DNA of 7,424 bases from positions 1 through 7,424 of IMG/VR virus record IMGVR_UViG_2645728091_000002. One strand, given 5' to 3'. Position 1 is the first letter of the stretch. The number at the start of each line of letters is the position of its first letter. Both the position numbers and the translations under genes were made by a program. The notes beneath the pieces were generated by a model, which was not told where the DNA came from, ran no database searches, and was given only the letters and a program-made list of their open reading frames with translations. The stretch is from a virus (lineage: Duplodnaviria > Heunggongvirae > Uroviricota > Caudoviricetes). This document shows positions 2,423-7,424 of this stretch, in pieces.

Positions 2423-2872
2423 ATGGAAGAACAGGCAAATAAGATTCTCATAGAACTATTGCAAAAAGCCAGTAATGGAATAGACGCGGCTGTCTCATTT
2501 AGCCAGGCACAGATTCCTGATGTTGTTCATCAGTTGCTGCTATGGAATATGGTTGATAGCCTGATTAAAACATTAATAGCCATTTTAACAATCCCGCTGG
2601 TTTTCTGGTTTATGAAGAAACAGTACCAAAAAGTTGAAATTGGTAAGTTCGATGATGAAGGATGGTCATGGGATAAGGGGAAGACTAAATACAAACCGAC
2701 TATGATTTGGGAAAGTAACGGTGAGATTAGTTTTCTAATCTTACCATTAGCTGCAGTTTTTGTTCTGTGGGTAAGTTTTATTATTGCTGTAGTAACCAAT
2801 ATGACATGGTTAGAAATTTTGCTGGCTCCAAAGCTTTACCTTATCGAATATGCAGCATCATTGGTTAAGTAA
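2423..2872 (+). CDS. Small membrane protein (149 aa, two predicted TM helices), function unknown; occupies the position where lambdoid phages carry sieB-type superinfection-exclusion genes
   Basis: GAGGTGA Shine-Dalgarno overlaps the N stop codon, with the ATG 8 nt after N, so it is translationally coupled. Hydrophobic segments LIKTLIAILTIPLVFWFM and ISFLILPLAAVFVLWVSFIIAVV. Visibly more A+T-rich than the flanking N and Red genes. I do not recognise the sequence as a named protein. Confidence 0.75.
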   Translation: MEEQANKILIELLQKASNGIDAAVSFSQAQIPDVVHQLLLWNMVDSLIKTLIAILTIPLVFWFMKKQYQKVEIGKFDDEGWSWDKGKTKYKPTMIWESNGEISFLILPLAAVFVLWVSFIIAVVTNMTWLEILLAPKLYLIEYAASLVK

Positions 2873-2876
2873 TTTC

Positions 2877-2902
2877 AGGCCGCATAGTCGGCCTTTATTT
2901 TT
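2877..2902 (+). terminator. Rho-independent terminator after the membrane-protein gene (tL1-like position)
   Basis: AGGCCG(2877-2882)-CATAGT-CGGCCT(2889-2894) stem followed by TTATTTTT. Confidence 0.7.
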
Positions 2903-2931
2903 GGCACTAACAACAGAATAAACACTGCACT

Positions 2932-2959
2932 GTGTATTCATTCCAACGAGTGAATACAC
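2932..2959 (+). other. Stable stem-loop (11-bp stem with one G·U, 6-nt loop) in a non-coding segment; not followed by a U-tract
   Basis: GTGTATTCATT (2932-2942) pairs with AGTGAATACAC (2949-2959); loop CCAACG. No convincing ORF or promoter around it. Confidence 0.5.
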
Positions 2960-3021
2960 GGAGCAATGTCGCTCGTAACTAAACAGGAGCCGACTTGTTC
3001 TGATTATTGGAAATCTTCTTT

Positions 3022-3048
3022 GCCCTCCAGTGTGAGGGCGATTTTTTA
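3022..3048 (+). terminator. Rho-independent terminator just upstream of the ea10-like gene
   Basis: GCCCTC(3022-3027)-CAGTGT-GAGGGC(3034-3039) stem followed by GATTTTTTA. Confidence 0.7.
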
Positions 3049-3067
3049 TCTATGAGGATATGAATAG

Positions 3068-3436
3068 ATGTCAAACATCAAAAAATACATCATTGATTAC
3101 GACTGGAAAGCATCAATAGAAATTGAAATCGACCATGACGTAATGACAGAGGAAAAACTTCACCAGATTAATAATTTCTGGTCAGACTCTGAATACCGAC
3201 TCAATAAACACGGCTCTGTATTAAATGCTGTATTAATCATGCTGGCGCAACATGCTCTGCTTATAGCAATTTCAAGCGACTTAAATGCATATGGTGTTGT
3301 GTGTGAGTTCGACTGGAATGATGGAAATGGTCAGGAAGGATGGCCTCCAATGGATGGTAGCGAAGGAATAAGAATTACCGATATCGATACATCAGGAATA
3401 TTTGATTCAGATGATATGACTATCAAGGCCGCCTGA
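3068..3436 (+). CDS. ea10: Acidic 122-aa early-left-operon protein; probable counterpart of lambda Ea10
   Basis: GAGGA lies 9 nt upstream of the ATG. The gene sits immediately upstream of cIII and has the 122-aa length I associate with lambda Ea10. The assignment rests on position and size; I do not reliably recall the Ea10 sequence. The C-terminal third is strongly acidic (DWNDGNGQEGWPPMDGSEG…DSDDM). Confidence 0.6.
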   Translation: MSNIKKYIIDYDWKASIEIEIDHDVMTEEKLHQINNFWSDSEYRLNKHGSVLNAVLIMLAQHALLIAISSDLNAYGVVCEFDWNDGNGQEGWPPMDGSEGIRITDIDTSGIFDSDDMTIKAA

Positions 3437-3482: not shown

Positions 3483-3508
3483 CGTTATGTATAAATAAGG
3501 AGCACACC

Positions 3509-3673
3509 ATGCAATATGCCATTGCAGGGTGGCCTGTTGCTGGCTGCCCTTCCGAATCTTTACTTGAACGAATCACCCGTAAATTACGTGACGGATGGAA
3601 ACGCCTTATCGACATACTTAATCAGCCAGGAGTCCCAAAGAATGGATCAAACACTTATGGCTATCCAGACTAA
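3509..3673 (+). CDS. cIII: CIII (54 aa), inhibitor of FtsH-mediated CII degradation
   Basis: [54 protein letters not shown] matches lambda CIII as I recall it. AAGGAG lies 6 nt upstream of the ATG at 3509. The 78-aa ORF in the track is an in-frame upstream over-extension. Confidence 0.92.
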   Translation: MQYAIAGWPVAGCPSESLLERITRKLRDGWKRLIDILNQPGVPKNGSNTYGYPD

Positions 3674-6357: not shown

Positions 6358-6579
6358 ATGGCAGACATCATTGATTCAGCATCAGAAATTGAAGAATTAC
6401 AGCGCAACACAGCAATAAAAATGCGCCGCCTGAACCACCAGGCTATATCTGCCACTCATTGTTGTGAGTGTGGCGATCCGATAGATGAACGAAGACGCTT
6501 GGCCGTTCAGGGTTGTCGGACTTGTGCAAGTTGCCAGGAGGATCTGGAACTTATCAGTAAACAGAGAGGTTCGAAGTGA
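6358..6579 (+). CDS. DksA/TraR-family C4 zinc-finger protein (73 aa), a probable RNA-polymerase secondary-channel binding regulator
   Basis: C-x2-C … C-x2-C motif (CCECGDPIDERRRLAVQGCRTCASC) and overall similarity to F-plasmid TraR (…CEACGNPIPEARRK…C..C) as I recall it. The 73-aa size is typical of phage TraR-like proteins. Confidence 0.8.
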   Translation: MADIIDSASEIEELQRNTAIKMRRLNHQAISATHCCECGDPIDERRRLAVQGCRTCASCQEDLELISKQRGSK

Positions 6580-6731
6580 GCGAAATTAACTAGAAGCCAA
6601 AGATAAAATCATCGCTGAGCAGGAGAAAATCGCTAACGGAGAAAAGACAGTAAGTCAGTATATGAAAACCGCATGATATCATCAGATAAAAATCGATCGT
6701 AAAGCGAAATATTAATACCAGAATAAACGAG

Positions 6732-6755
6732 TCGAGGTAAATTATATTACCTCGA
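6732..6755. terminator. Inverted repeat (9-bp arms, 6-bp spacer) between convergent genes; probable terminator for the minus-strand membrane-protein gene, possibly bidirectional
   Basis: TCGAGGTAA(6732-6740)-ATTATA-TTACCTCGA(6747-6755). On the minus strand the hairpin is followed by a T-rich run (complement of 6716-6731). It lies about 35 bp beyond the minus-gene stop at 6790-6792. Confidence 0.5.
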
Positions 6756-6789
6756 TAAATTAACTAAAACTTGCCCGCTATATACTATC

Positions 6790-7320
6790 TCATTCAGTAT
6801 CATCACGCGCGGTCTGTGCATATGTTACTACCGCACCTAATGTATTAATTTTCTTTTCAACATAGATAATATTATCGTACTCATAATTGCCATACGGATA
6901 GCAAATGCGAATATTCTCATGTAGATCGGGGTCATCCACCTCAGCTCCAGAACAACTTTTTGAACTACCGGAAGTATACCGATACGGTGCAACATAAGAC
7001 GATGTCTCTCCAGGCAAAAAATAAGTTAGTGTTGTAAGGGGTATAATCAGAAAAAATCCAGCAAATATGCACATCCCTGCATAAACCTTAAGGTATGCTG
7101 ACAGACTCTTCCAGCCGCTTTGTTTTACTATCCCCTTCTTAACCCAAAACAGAGATAACAGAAAAGCTATTCCCATGCTAAACAGAATGTAATAGTGGGA
7201 TATACTCTGATTAAGAAACGTGACCCTGTAAATATCTGCCCGCCACCAGAAGAAAAGGAAAATAAAGATCAGGCCTGAAACTGTCATGCAAATCAAATAA
7301 GGATACGAATCTTTTTTCAT
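6790..7320 (-). CDS. A+T-rich accessory (moron-like) membrane protein, 176 aa, three predicted TM helices plus a Cys-containing C-terminal soluble domain; function unknown
   Basis: Long uninterrupted ORF in strongly A+T-rich DNA, where chance ORFs are disfavoured. Lys-rich N-terminus MKKDSYPY followed by hydrophobic segments LICMTVSGLIFIFLFFWW, YYILFSMGIAFLLSLFWV and VYAGMCIFAGFFLIIPLTTLTYFL. Convergent with the pL operon. Its start codon is 9 bp from the IS10-type end. Confidence 0.7.
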   Translation of the reverse strand: MKKDSYPYLICMTVSGLIFIFLFFWWRADIYRVTFLNQSISHYYILFSMGIAFLLSLFWVKKGIVKQSGWKSLSAYLKVYAGMCIFAGFFLIIPLTTLTYFLPGETSSYVAPYRYTSGSSKSCSGAEVDDPDLHENIRICYPYGNYEYDNIIYVEKKINTLGAVVTYAQTARDDTE

Positions 7321-7328
7321 GTTTAGCG

Positions 7329-7424
7329 CTGATGAATCCCCTAATGATTTTTATCAAAATCATTAAGTTAAGGTAGATACACATCTTGTCATATGATCAA
7401 ATGGTTTCGCCAAAAATCAATAAT
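7329..7424 (+). mobile_element. Outside end of an IS10-type element (Tn10 family); element continues beyond the window, transposase gene expected on the + strand just past 7424
   Basis: CTGATGAATCCCCTAATGATTTTTATCAAAATCATTAAGTTAAGGTAGATACACATCTTGTCATATGATCAAATGGTTTCGCCAAAAATCAATAAT matches the IS10 outside-end sequence as I recall it, including the terminal CTGATGAATCCCC, the near-palindrome around AATGATTTT…AAAATCATT and the TTAAGTTAAGG IHF-site region. Flanking 9 bp TGTTTAGCG (7320-7328) resembles the IS10 target consensus NGCTNAGCN. Confidence 0.85.

What the first reader, a model, noticed from the sequence alone, without database searches (positions are those of the whole stretch)
6580..7320. 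A+T-rich moron with a three-TM membrane protein at the accessory position of the early-left operon
After the TraR-like gene the composition shifts abruptly to A+T-rich DNA. This DNA carries a single convergently oriented gene for a 176-aa protein with three predicted transmembrane helices and a roughly 70-residue Cys-containing C-terminal domain. Lambda carries dispensable ea genes at this position, and other lambdoid prophages frequently carry superinfection-exclusion or anti-phage cargo there. Composition, orientation and position all point to horizontally acquired accessory cargo. I do not recognise the protein, so it is a candidate for an uncharacterised exclusion or abortive-infection function, but that is inference only.
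Basis: inference. Interest (0 to 1): 0.65.

Follow-up and report, generated by a model that had tools for sequence, protein, structure and literature searches.

The report
Phage 434 membrane-protein moron, IS10-capped
The A+T-rich segment is a real, mobile single-gene cassette (identical to a gene of phage 434) for an uncharacterised inner-membrane protein that temperate phages carry in their accessory-gene hotspots; its function is untested, and here an IS10-type insertion sequence has cut it off from its own promoter.

Summary
Window 6790-7320 (-) is an intact 176-aa ORF in DNA of 38% G+C, against 52% for bet/exo. It is convergent with the TraR-like gene and has three hydrophobic helices plus a ~70-residue Cys-containing C-terminal domain.

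It is 100% identical to phage 434 gene CPT_434_36 ('putative membrane protein'). The segment is present in 908 of 5426 complete E. coli genomes.

The family is small (61 representatives among 1.84 billion proteins). It has no Pfam, NCBIfam, PADLOC or PDB relative.

Predicted anatomy is N-in/C-out: three TM helices, then a periplasmic five-stranded OB-like barrel. Its two Cys are the only invariant residues.

The 'moron' reading is strongly supported. The gene travels with about 135 nt of upstream and 105 nt of downstream DNA. It sits next to TraR in 64 lambdoid viral contigs, and between portal and gpA (the P2 old/tin defence hotspot) in 14 P2-like ones. However, more distant orthologues are ordinary syntenic chromosomal genes in Enterobacter and Citrobacter.

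It is inserted 8 bp upstream of the ATG, with RNA-OUT/pOUT pointing into the gene.

An exclusion function is plausible but remains inference.

The parts
6358..6579 (+). TraR/DksA-type zinc-finger gene. It is the last gene of the leftward early operon segment shared with lambda, and is given here as context.
   Evidence: Pfam zf-dskA_traR, E = 7.7e-9. Annotated TraR/DksA in related genomes. Lambda homology runs through it and stops at 6591.
6592..6789 (.). A+T-rich spacer (0.34 G+C) between the two convergent genes. It starts at the breakpoint of homology with lambda and carries no ORF.
   Evidence: It is identical in phage 434. It has the same length in 64 lambdoid viral contigs.
6732..6755 (-). 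Terminator-like hairpin (9-bp stem, 6-nt loop, then a moderately T-rich tail), 35 nt downstream of the stop codon of the membrane-protein gene.
   Evidence: Consensus scan. Inverted repeat I4, 100% complementary. The RNA fold contains this hairpin, but the z-score is only -1.8. A stem of similar sequence (two arm positions changed to G-U pairs) lies at the same place in the E. coli P2-like copy.
6790..7320 (-). Gene for the 176-aa inner-membrane protein (stop codon at 6790-6792). It is identical to phage 434 CPT_434_36 from its conserved ATG onward.
7015..7299 (-). Membrane part: TM1 (residues 8-26, 7243-7299), periplasmic loop 1 (27-41), TM2 (42-60, 7141-7197), strongly basic cytoplasmic loop 2 (61-79) and TM3 (80-102, 7015-7083).
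   Evidence: Hydropathy. AlphaFold helices, pLDDT 87. Family-wide net charge is N-terminus +1.5, loop 1 +0.8 and loop 2 +3.7.
6793..7014 (-). C-terminal domain (residues 103-176), predicted periplasmic and folded as a five-stranded OB-like beta-barrel. Cys123 (6952-6954) and Cys140 (6901-6903) are the only invariant residues of the family. Conserved motif: SCSGAxVxDPxL...IRICYPxGxY.
7320..7328 (.). The nine bases flanking the IS end (TGTTTAGCG). This is the presumed 9-bp target of the insertion and fits the IS10 hot-spot consensus NGCTNAGCN at 5 of 6 specified positions. It overlaps the A of the ATG.
   Evidence: Sequence. Phage 434 homology ends at 7328/7329. The consensus is quoted in PMC4574204. 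The second copy of the duplication lies beyond the window and could not be checked.
7329..7424 (.). Outside end of an IS10-family (ISVsa5-type) insertion sequence, running off the window. The transposase gene would start about 12 nt beyond the window end.
   Evidence: It matches thousands of places in E. coli chromosomes and plasmids. Identical ends are followed by an 'IS4-like element ISVsa5 family transposase'.
7374..7424 (-). 3' two-thirds of RNA-OUT, the IS10 antisense RNA made from the outward promoter pOUT. It is transcribed toward the membrane-protein gene, and its 3' end lies 54 nt from the ATG. pOUT itself lies just outside the window.
   Evidence: Rfam RF00240, 61.4 bits (gathering score 41), model positions 20-70, cut off at the 5' end by the window end. 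No terminator-like site was found between it and the ATG.

Best explanation
Shown:
- The segment is a self-contained accessory cassette (a 'moron') that moves between temperate phages.
- Its single gene encodes a 176-aa protein under purifying selection.

Predicted from sequence and models:
- The protein is an inner-membrane protein with N-in/C-out topology and three TM helices.
- It presents a small five-stranded OB-like barrel, probably disulfide-stabilised, plus a conserved loop 1 to the periplasm.

Inferred:
- The gene is convergent with the pL operon, so it cannot be expressed from pL. In its native setting it must be read from its own upstream region, which probably means expression in the lysogen.
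- The most likely job is superinfection exclusion at the inner membrane or periplasm. The conserved periplasmic face would bind a conserved host envelope component, or the incoming DNA-delivery apparatus, and block genome entry of competing phages. Established precedents are P22 SieA and HK97 gp15.

Specific to this window:
- An IS10-family element inserted 8 bp upstream of the ATG.
- This removed the native upstream region, including a weak Shine-Dalgarno sequence.
- It placed the gene directly downstream of the IS's outward promoter pOUT. Any expression here must therefore come from IS read-through.

Confidence by step: moron and membrane anatomy about 0.9; IS10 junction about 0.95; exclusion function about 0.35. 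The overall figure given (0.4) is weighted toward the functional claim.
For: Identity and prevalence:
- 100% identical to the gene in phages 434 and 2B8, and 99.4% to mEp332.
- Present in 908 of 5426 complete E. coli genomes.

Mobility:
- 64 lambdoid viral contigs carry it convergent to TraR at one fixed distance. 14 P2-like contigs carry it between portal and gpA.
- The same placement holds in Salmonella, Klebsiella and E. coli P2-like prophages.
- Nucleotide homology between the 434 copy and the P2-like copies starts about 137 nt before the ATG and ends about 107 nt after the stop.
- An ead/Ea22 pseudogene fragment travels with it into a P2-like prophage.
- The gpA-gpQ interval is a documented hotspot of anti-phage systems that holds old and tin (PMC9122126).

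Protein:
- Three helices plus a beta domain, pLDDT 87-88.
- Basic loop 2, with a net-neutral family-wide (acidic in this copy) C-terminal domain.
- Only Cys123 and Cys140 are invariant across 33 diverse members, which fits a periplasmic disulfide.
- dN/dS is about 0.1.

Precedents:
- SieA is a 162-164-aa inner-membrane protein with three TM helices that blocks DNA injection (PMC10883804).
- gp15 is a moron-encoded inner-membrane exclusion protein with chromosomal YebO homologues (PMC3594210).

IS10:
-.
- Outward IS10 promoters are known to activate adjacent genes (PMC4574204).
Against: - No experiment bears on function.
- No similarity to any PADLOC defence model, to SieA (hhalign probability 0.2%), or to any Pfam, NCBIfam or PDB entry. 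Fold searches returned only generic matches.
- Orthologues at 36-56% identity are ordinary chromosomal genes. They show conserved synteny in at least six Enterobacter species and lie next to rstB-tus-fumC in Citrobacter. The ancestral role is therefore probably not anti-phage.
- The P2 hotspot also holds non-defence cargo such as partition systems and toxins.
- The periplasmic domain is the most conserved part and shows no sign of diversifying selection. That is unlike many proteins that contact phage parts directly.
- Promoter and terminator assignments rest on consensus matches only.
- In this window the gene has lost its native 5' region and may simply be silent.
Confidence: 0.4

Rival explanations
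1. It is a lysogenic-conversion or host-fitness factor with an envelope function unrelated to phages, for example stress tolerance, envelope homeostasis or signalling. It would have been captured from a chromosomal Enterobacteriaceae gene and would still do what the chromosomal orthologues do.
For: - Syntenic chromosomal orthologues occur in Enterobacter, Citrobacter, Klebsiella and Pseudescherichia with no phage genes nearby.
- The periplasmic domain is highly conserved between phage-borne and chromosomal members.
- Selection is purifying, not diversifying.
- Phage morons and P2 hotspots are known to carry non-defence cargo.
Against: - The phage-borne copies sit specifically in loci enriched for anti-phage genes.
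- The HK97 gp15/YebO precedent shows that chromosomal homologues do not preclude an exclusion role.
- No neighbourhood clue points to any particular housekeeping pathway.
Confidence: 0.3
2. It is a single-gene abortive-infection or toxic membrane effector that depolarises or permeabilises the inner membrane when an infecting phage triggers it.
For: - Transmembrane proteins in known defence systems are often suicide effectors (quoted in PMC9122126).
- It lies in a defence hotspot.
- One P2-like copy lies next to a YafO-type toxin gene.
Against: - No sensor partner is conserved. The neighbours differ from locus to locus.
- The conserved surface is periplasmic rather than cytoplasmic, where infection is usually sensed.
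- It is carried by about 17% of complete E. coli genomes and kept as a stable chromosomal gene in Enterobacter, with no antitoxin-like partner.
Confidence: 0.1
3. It is an immunity-type protein against an envelope-acting toxin, such as a pore-forming colicin/bacteriocin or a contact-dependent or type VI effector, rather than against phages.
For: - It is a small multi-pass inner-membrane protein on a mobile element. This architecture recalls pore-forming-colicin immunity proteins (own knowledge, not tested).
- The weak top fold match, DUF1093/YxeA, belongs to a Bacillus family that is linked, from my own knowledge, to antimicrobial-peptide response operons.
Against: - No toxin gene is linked in any context examined.
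- No sequence similarity to any immunity family in Pfam.
Confidence: 0.07
4. This concerns the state of this particular copy. The IS10 insertion is a neutral hot-spot hit that silences the gene by removing its promoter and ribosome-binding region, rather than activating it. The cassette here would then be on its way to decay.
For: - The nine flanking bases fit the IS10 hot-spot consensus at 5 of 6 positions.
- The native GGA upstream of the ATG is lost and no Shine-Dalgarno-like sequence replaces it.
- In strain c1-17 the same junction lies in a degraded prophage remnant with frameshifted neighbours.
- 5'-truncated 112-aa and 81-aa remnants of the gene are common in E. coli.
Against: - The ORF is intact and 100% identical to the 434 protein.
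- RNA-OUT/pOUT points into the gene with no terminator-like site in between.
- IS10 outward promoters are documented to switch on adjacent genes.
- The same site and orientation is occupied by two different IS10 sequence variants in the window and in c1-17, with 5 differences in 96 nt. That suggests recurrence.
Confidence: 0.4

Closest known systems
P22 SieA (inner-membrane superinfection-exclusion protein)
   Same: - Prophage-encoded and a single gene.
- About 160-175 aa with three predicted TM helices and an inner-membrane location.
- Has its own promoter and lies outside the main operons (P22 annotation).
   Different: - No detectable sequence relationship (hhalign probability 0.2%).
- SieA's conserved motif FxRYPxEAxxFNK is predicted to be cytoplasmic, whereas here the conserved domain is periplasmic with two invariant Cys.
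- The genome position differs.
HK97 gp15 moron (YebO-related exclusion protein)
   Same: - A moron-encoded inner-membrane protein of a lambdoid phage.
- The family is restricted to Enterobacteriaceae, with many non-prophage chromosomal homologues. The distribution found here is the same.
   Different: - gp15 sits in the tail operon, whereas this gene sits at the ea22/ea8.5 position.
- gp15 was not compared with this protein by sequence here. PHROGs assigns this protein only to phrog_1416, of unknown function.
- This protein's function is untested.
P2 old/tin locus cargo (gpA-gpQ defence hotspot)
   Same: Homologues at 47-80% identity occupy exactly this interval in P2-like prophages of E. coli, Salmonella and Klebsiella.
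   Different: - It is not one of the systems named in the main text of PMC9122126 as tested.
- It has no hit in PADLOC.
- The window's copy is in a lambdoid prophage, not a P2-like one.
NfeD-like proteins (e.g. E. coli YbbJ): TM helices plus a C-terminal OB-fold barrel
   Same: The overall architecture and size are similar: a few TM helices followed by a small beta-barrel of about 70 residues. The resemblance rests on my own knowledge of NfeD and on the OB-like fold matches.
   Different: - No sequence relationship (no Pfam NfeD hit in 33 members; hhalign probability 1.6% against YbbJ).
- No SPFH/stomatin partner gene nearby.
- The barrel here is predicted to be periplasmic with an invariant Cys pair.
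IS10 / Tn10 with pOUT and RNA-OUT
   Same: - The terminal sequence begins CTGATGAATCCCC.
- There is an RNA-OUT match above Rfam's gathering score.
- An ISVsa5/IS10-type transposase follows in identical ends elsewhere.
- The flanking nonamer is hot-spot-like.
   Different: - Only 96 nt lie in the window. pOUT, the transposase gene and the second copy of the target duplication lie outside it.
- The end is a sequence variant about 95% identical to the canonical IS10R-type end seen in strain c1-17.

Membership tests
Phage moron (independent accessory transcription unit, sensu Hendrix/Juhala; definition quoted in PMC3594210) | Present in some phages but absent from close relatives at the same map position | tested here: met
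   Lambda, HK630, DE3 and others share the TraR gene but diverge 12 nt after its stop, and they carry ea22 instead. Phages 434, 2B8 and mEp332 carry this gene.
Phage moron | Base composition different from the surrounding genes | tested here: met
   0.377 G+C for 6580-7328, against 0.462 for the rest of the window and 0.52 for bet/exo. GC3 is 0.37, against 0.59-0.61. Other low-GC accessory segments also exist in the window.
Phage moron | Own promoter | tested here: inconclusive
   The native upstream DNA is missing from the window because the IS10 element displaced it. In phage 434 and the P2-like copies, about 135 nt upstream is co-conserved. It contains an extended -10-like TGnTAAATT and TTGTGCA direct repeats. 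These are consensus matches only, with no transcript data.
Phage moron | Own terminator | tested here: inconclusive
   A hairpin at 6732-6755 followed by a T-rich tail was found by the scan. A similar stem is present in the E. coli P2-like copy. The folding z-score is only -1.8.
Phage moron | Spread by horizontal transfer among unrelated phages | tested here: met
   Found in both lambdoid and P2-like prophages with homologous flanks, and with an Ea22 fragment carried along.
P22 SieA family | Sequence homology to SieA types A-C, including the conserved FxRYPxEAxxFNK motif | tested here: not met
   hhalign of the family profile against P22 SieA gives probability 0.2%. The motif is absent from the sequence.
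P22 SieA family | Blocks DNA injection of specific phages | not testable with these tools
   Needs plating, K+ efflux or DNA-entry assays.
Known anti-phage defence systems (PADLOC-DB 2.0) | Match to a model of a known or candidate defence protein | tested here: not met
   0 families at E <= 1.
NfeD-like TM + OB-fold proteins | Match to the Pfam NfeD domain or to YbbJ | tested here: not met
   No NfeD hit in any of 33 members at E <= 0.1. hhalign against YbbJ gives probability 1.6%.
IS10-family insertion sequence (IS4 family, ISVsa5/IS10) | Characteristic terminal sequence and RNA-OUT antisense RNA near the outside end | tested here: met
   Rfam RNA-OUT at 61.4 bits against a gathering score of 41. 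The end is 100% identical to ends in 735 E. coli records, and in the one such record examined it is followed by an ISVsa5-family transposase gene.
IS10-family insertion sequence | 9-bp target duplication flanking the element | not testable with these tools
   The other end of the element lies outside the window. Only the left copy (TGTTTAGCG, a 5/6 fit to NGCTNAGCN) is visible.
Holin / lysis protein | Location in the lysis cassette, about 70-110 aa, holin family match | tested here: not met
   It lies between TraR and xis/int, not in the late region. It is 176 aa, has no Pfam or PHROG lysis annotation, and has chromosomal orthologues.

The most novel reading that the evidence does not exclude
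The protein is the founding member of a new family of inner-membrane superinfection-exclusion proteins, recruited from a chromosomal Enterobacteriaceae envelope gene. Its disulfide-locked periplasmic OB-like barrel would mask a conserved host component that several phage types need for genome entry. Recurrent capture of the gene by the outward promoter of IS10-family elements, at the same nucleotide in two lineages and with two IS variants, would reflect selection for prophage-independent, constitutive expression.
Probability: 0.2. Interest if true: 0.6.

Novelty: new member of a known kind. Interest (0 to 1): 0.4.

Why it matters
The gene is carried by a classical laboratory phage (434) and by roughly one in six complete E. 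coli genomes. Even so, it belongs to a family with no name, no domain entry and no solved relative.

It recurs in the accessory hotspots of two unrelated temperate phage lineages, one of which is an experimentally validated reservoir of anti-phage systems. That makes it a cheap and well-defined candidate for a plating assay.

If it excludes phages, it adds a new membrane-level exclusion family with a confident structural model and a testable periplasmic interface. If it does not, it is an example of non-defence cargo in 'defence' hotspots and of a chromosomal envelope gene that phages domesticated.

The IS10 junction is a small reminder that prophage cargo can be rewired by insertion sequences.

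Tried and rejected
Searches that found nothing useful:
- Pfam, NCBIfam and PADLOC on the protein gave nothing beyond a sub-threshold DUF6057 hit.
- Pfam on 33 family members gave only scattered membrane-protein noise.
- A profile search against PDB sequences gave nothing below E = 0.67.
- Foldseek against viral models had no match at E <= 1e-3.
- The afdb50 library was unavailable.
- Literature searches by accession numbers, locus tag and PHROG id gave no paper. 'mEp332' returned only a qPCR paper.
- The 434 genome announcement used HHpred and still calls the protein a putative membrane protein.
- Exact IS/gene junction searches in viral and metagenome contigs found nothing. Among complete E. 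coli genomes only strain c1-17 has the junction.
- The search for related loci with the most diverse alignment failed because no conserved stretch was available.

Ideas rejected:
- Homology to P22 SieA and to NfeD/YbbJ.
- A lipoprotein reading. 'LIC' at residues 9-11 is not a lipobox, and C11 is not conserved.
- The longer 188-aa and 200-aa annotated starts. They are not conserved outside E. coli.
- CII control of the gene. The CPT annotation of a CII site in 434 is an 8-base degenerate pattern. The same repeats are conserved in P2-like copies, and P2-type phages are not known to encode a CII homologue (own knowledge; not checked in these prophages).

Left unresolved:
- The weak hit of the profile to a 3074-aa repeat protein (P0124) led nowhere.
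Full report
**1. The observation**

The window is the immunity and early-left region of a lambdoid prophage.
- On the minus strand lie replication protein O (N-terminal part), CII and a P22-type Cro.
- On the plus strand lie an S24/HTH repressor, an N-like antiterminator, a 149-aa membrane protein, DUF2528/Ea10, the cIII thermoregulator, Gam, Bet, Exo, small ORFs, and a TraR/DksA zinc-finger gene at 6358-6579.

After TraR the G+C content falls from 0.47 to 0.34 in the spacer (6580-6789) and 0.39 in the ORF. Bet/exo is 0.52. The ORF at 6790-7320 (minus strand) encodes 176 aa with three hydrophobic stretches and four Cys. The description and coordinates are therefore right. The low G+C is not unique in the window, because 2423-3436 is equally A+T-rich.

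**2. What the DNA is**

Window 6560-7328 is 100% identical to phages 434 and 2B8 and 98.8% identical to mEp332. Lambda-type phages share only the first 32 nt, which is the end of TraR, and then carry ea22. In phage 434 the gene is CPT_434_36, 'putative membrane protein'. It lies between the zinc-finger gene and two small ORFs, followed by xis and int.

The TraR-to-ORF segment is present in 908 of 5426 complete E. coli genomes. The exact protein is recorded on at least 1000 contigs, always as 'hypothetical' or 'transmembrane protein'. The 434 genome paper used InterProScan and HHpred and assigned no function. It notes that 434's morons differ from lambda's (PMC9119081).

**3. Start codon and reality of the gene**

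Public records annotate 188 aa (TTG start) or 200 aa. Homologues from Salmonella, Enterobacter, Cedecea, Klebsiella and others all begin at the MKK... methionine, and the N-terminal extension is confined to E. coli records. The 176-aa product is therefore the conserved protein. dN/dS between the window's copy and the P2-like copies is about 0.1 in both halves of the protein.

**4. Protein anatomy**

AlphaFold with a 22-sequence alignment gives pLDDT 87. It predicts helices at 5-29, 38-61 and 69-101, a short strand at 34-36, and a five-stranded beta domain at 105-171. The domain modelled alone gives pLDDT 88.

Across 33 diverse members the net charge is +1.5 for the N-terminus, +0.8 for loop 1, +3.7 for loop 2 and about 0 for the C-domain. 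By the positive-inside rule this gives N-in/C-out topology, with loop 1 and the C-domain in the periplasm.

The only invariant residues in the 33 sequences are Cys123 and Cys140. They lie at or just before the outer ends of the two strands of one beta-hairpin. A conserved periplasmic disulfide is the natural reading, but this is inference. The C-domain is the most conserved part, at 55-86% identity to the window's copy against 32-74% for the membrane part.

**5. The family**

An exhaustive profile search of 1.84 billion representatives finds 61 proteins. Almost all are 166-189 aa with the same architecture. There is no Pfam, NCBIfam, PADLOC or PDB relative. PHROG 1416 (unknown function, 90 positions) covers only residues 89-176. 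This is probably because 5'-truncated 112-aa and 81-aa remnants are common in E. coli.

In one-genome-per-species data the family is confined to Enterobacteriaceae.

**6. Where it lives**

- Lambdoid prophages. 64 of 79 IMG/VR loci carry a copy at >=98% identity. All are convergent with TraR at one fixed spacing, with exo/bet on one side and xis/int on the other.
- P2-like prophages. 14 of 79 loci, plus Salmonella, Klebsiella michiganensis and E. coli assemblies, carry copies at 47-80% identity. These always lie between the portal gene and replication gene A. That interval is the old/tin locus, shown by Rousset et al. to be a hotspot of anti-phage systems. It also holds partition systems and toxins (PMC9122126).
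- Ordinary chromosome. In Enterobacter species the 36-45%-identical orthologue has conserved neighbours: GGDEF-EAL, with or without LysR, then the gene, then GGDEF, AI-2E transporter, permease and methyltransferase. In Citrobacter it lies next to rstB-tus-fumC. In Klebsiella sp. R390 and Pseudescherichia it has other non-phage neighbours.

**7. It moves as a cassette**

Nucleotide homology between the 434 copy and the E. coli P2-like copy (76% identity) runs from 137 nt upstream of the ATG to 107 nt past the stop. The Salmonella copies share the upstream ~95-135 nt and the coding region only.

The shared upstream DNA contains an extended -10-like TGnTAAATT about 36-44 nt before the ATG. It also contains two or three TTGTGCA direct repeats with a 10-nt period. 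The shared downstream DNA contains the hairpin seen at window 6732-6755.

In E. coli 2011C-4251 the P2-like copy is followed by a truncated ead/Ea22-like pseudogene. This is a scar of a lambdoid origin. Four of the five moron criteria are thus satisfied at least in part, and transfer between phage lineages is shown directly.

**8.

Phage 434 homology stops at 7328. From 7329 the sequence (CTGATGAATCCCCTAATG...) matches thousands of chromosomal and plasmid sites in E. coli. In the two such loci examined it is followed by an 'IS4-like element ISVsa5 family transposase' gene.

Rfam finds RNA-OUT at 7424-7374 on the minus strand, at 61 bits, cut at its 5' end by the window end. An IS10-family element is therefore inserted 8 bp upstream of the ATG, outside end first. 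Its outward promoter pOUT, about 20 nt beyond the window, fires toward the gene. No terminator-like site lies between them.

The nine flanking bases, TGTTTAGCG, fit the IS10 hot-spot consensus NGCTNAGCN at 5 of 6 positions. The insertion removes the whole conserved upstream region and the weak GGA ribosome-binding motif. IS10 outward promoters are known to activate neighbouring genes (PMC4574204).

Among complete E. coli genomes only strain c1-17 has the same junction. Its IS end differs from the window's at 5 of 96 positions, and both variants are common elsewhere. This suggests two independent hits at one hot spot. I could not determine whether the gene is switched on or silenced here.

**9. 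How it most likely works**

Shown:
- a mobile, selectively maintained gene in phage accessory loci.

Predicted from sequence and models (untested):
- an N-in/C-out three-helix membrane protein with a conserved periplasmic barrel;

Inferred:
- The gene is convergent with pL, so it is not part of the early operon. It is probably expressed from its own promoter in the lysogen.
- The best-fitting role is superinfection exclusion at the inner membrane. The conserved periplasmic face would bind a conserved host envelope component or the incoming DNA-delivery apparatus.
- The precedents are P22 SieA, a 162-164-aa inner-membrane protein with three TM helices that blocks injection, and HK97 gp15, a moron-encoded inner-membrane protein with chromosomal YebO relatives.

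I put this at about 0.35. The main rival, at about 0.3, is an envelope function unrelated to phages and inherited from the chromosomal orthologues. Abortive-infection effector and toxin-immunity readings are less likely, because there is no conserved partner, the conserved surface is periplasmic, and no toxin gene is linked.

**10. Comparison and verdict**

The protein is not a member of the SieA family, of any PADLOC system, or of the NfeD-like TM+OB proteins. It resembles them only in architecture. It is best filed as a new, unnamed member of a known kind: a moron-encoded inner-membrane protein of temperate coliphages.

The finding is solid as an observation. Its 'moron' interpretation is confirmed and extended, and its functional guess remains open. 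Interest is moderate. This is an uncharacterised but very common family, carried by a classical phage, with a clear experiment to run, but nothing in hand is surprising to a phage specialist.

Noticed in passing
window 7329-7424: This is the end of an IS10-family (ISVsa5-type) insertion sequence, with RNA-OUT on the minus strand pointing into the membrane-protein gene. The window stops inside the element.
   Followed up: yes
L002 6725-6830 (E. coli c1-17) versus window 7320-7424: The same insertion site and orientation is occupied by a different IS10 sequence variant (5 differences in 96 nt). Both variants are common in E. coli. This suggests two independent insertions at one hot spot rather than shared descent.
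   Followed up: partly
window 2423-2872 (+): A second uncharacterised membrane-protein gene (149 aa) lies just after the N-like gene, in DNA of 0.37 G+C. It matches PHROG 3054 (unknown function) and has no Pfam hit. It is another accessory-looking gene in the early-left operon.
   Followed up: partly
window 3496-3554 (+): The lambda cIII thermoregulator RNA element gives a full-length Rfam match at 88.5 bits. It marks the start of cIII.
   Followed up: no
L001 5845-5875 (phage 434, minus strand); L019, L005 and L004 at about -106 to -80 from the ATG: Two or three direct repeats of TTGTGCA with a 10-nt period lie upstream of the cassette's extended -10-like element. They are conserved between the lambdoid and P2-like copies but absent from chromosomal orthologues. 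The 434 record annotates them as a CII site. The regulator, if any, is unknown.
   Followed up: partly
L033 4835-5205 (E. coli 2011C-4251, P2-like prophage): A truncated ead/Ea22-like pseudogene, which is a lambdoid gene, sits next to the cassette inside the P2 gpQ-gpA hotspot. It is a scar of transfer from a lambdoid phage.
   Followed up: partly
P0131, P0133, P0138; L034 2998-3180: 5'-truncated remnants of the P2-like allele (112 aa, 81 aa or less) are recorded on at least 1000 contigs. They probably explain why PHROG 1416 models only the last 90 residues.
   Followed up: partly
L020 (contig JARKOR010000073.1): A 3.5-kb contig binned as 'Candidatus Nanosynbacter' carries this gene, TraR, exo and bet at 98-100% identity to the E. 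coli prophage. This is almost certainly a binning contaminant.
   Followed up: no
L021 8001-8519 (Citrobacter portucalensis): A chromosomal homologue at 56% identity sits immediately upstream of an rstB-like sensor kinase gene, followed by tus and fumC. No response-regulator gene was detected where rstA would be expected.
   Followed up: no
L016-L018 2281-5623 (Klebsiella michiganensis P2-like prophage): In the same gpQ-gpA hotspot, next to the homologue, lies a pair of genes of 790 aa (weak AAA_16 match) and 279 aa. They look like an uncharacterised defence system.
   Followed up: no
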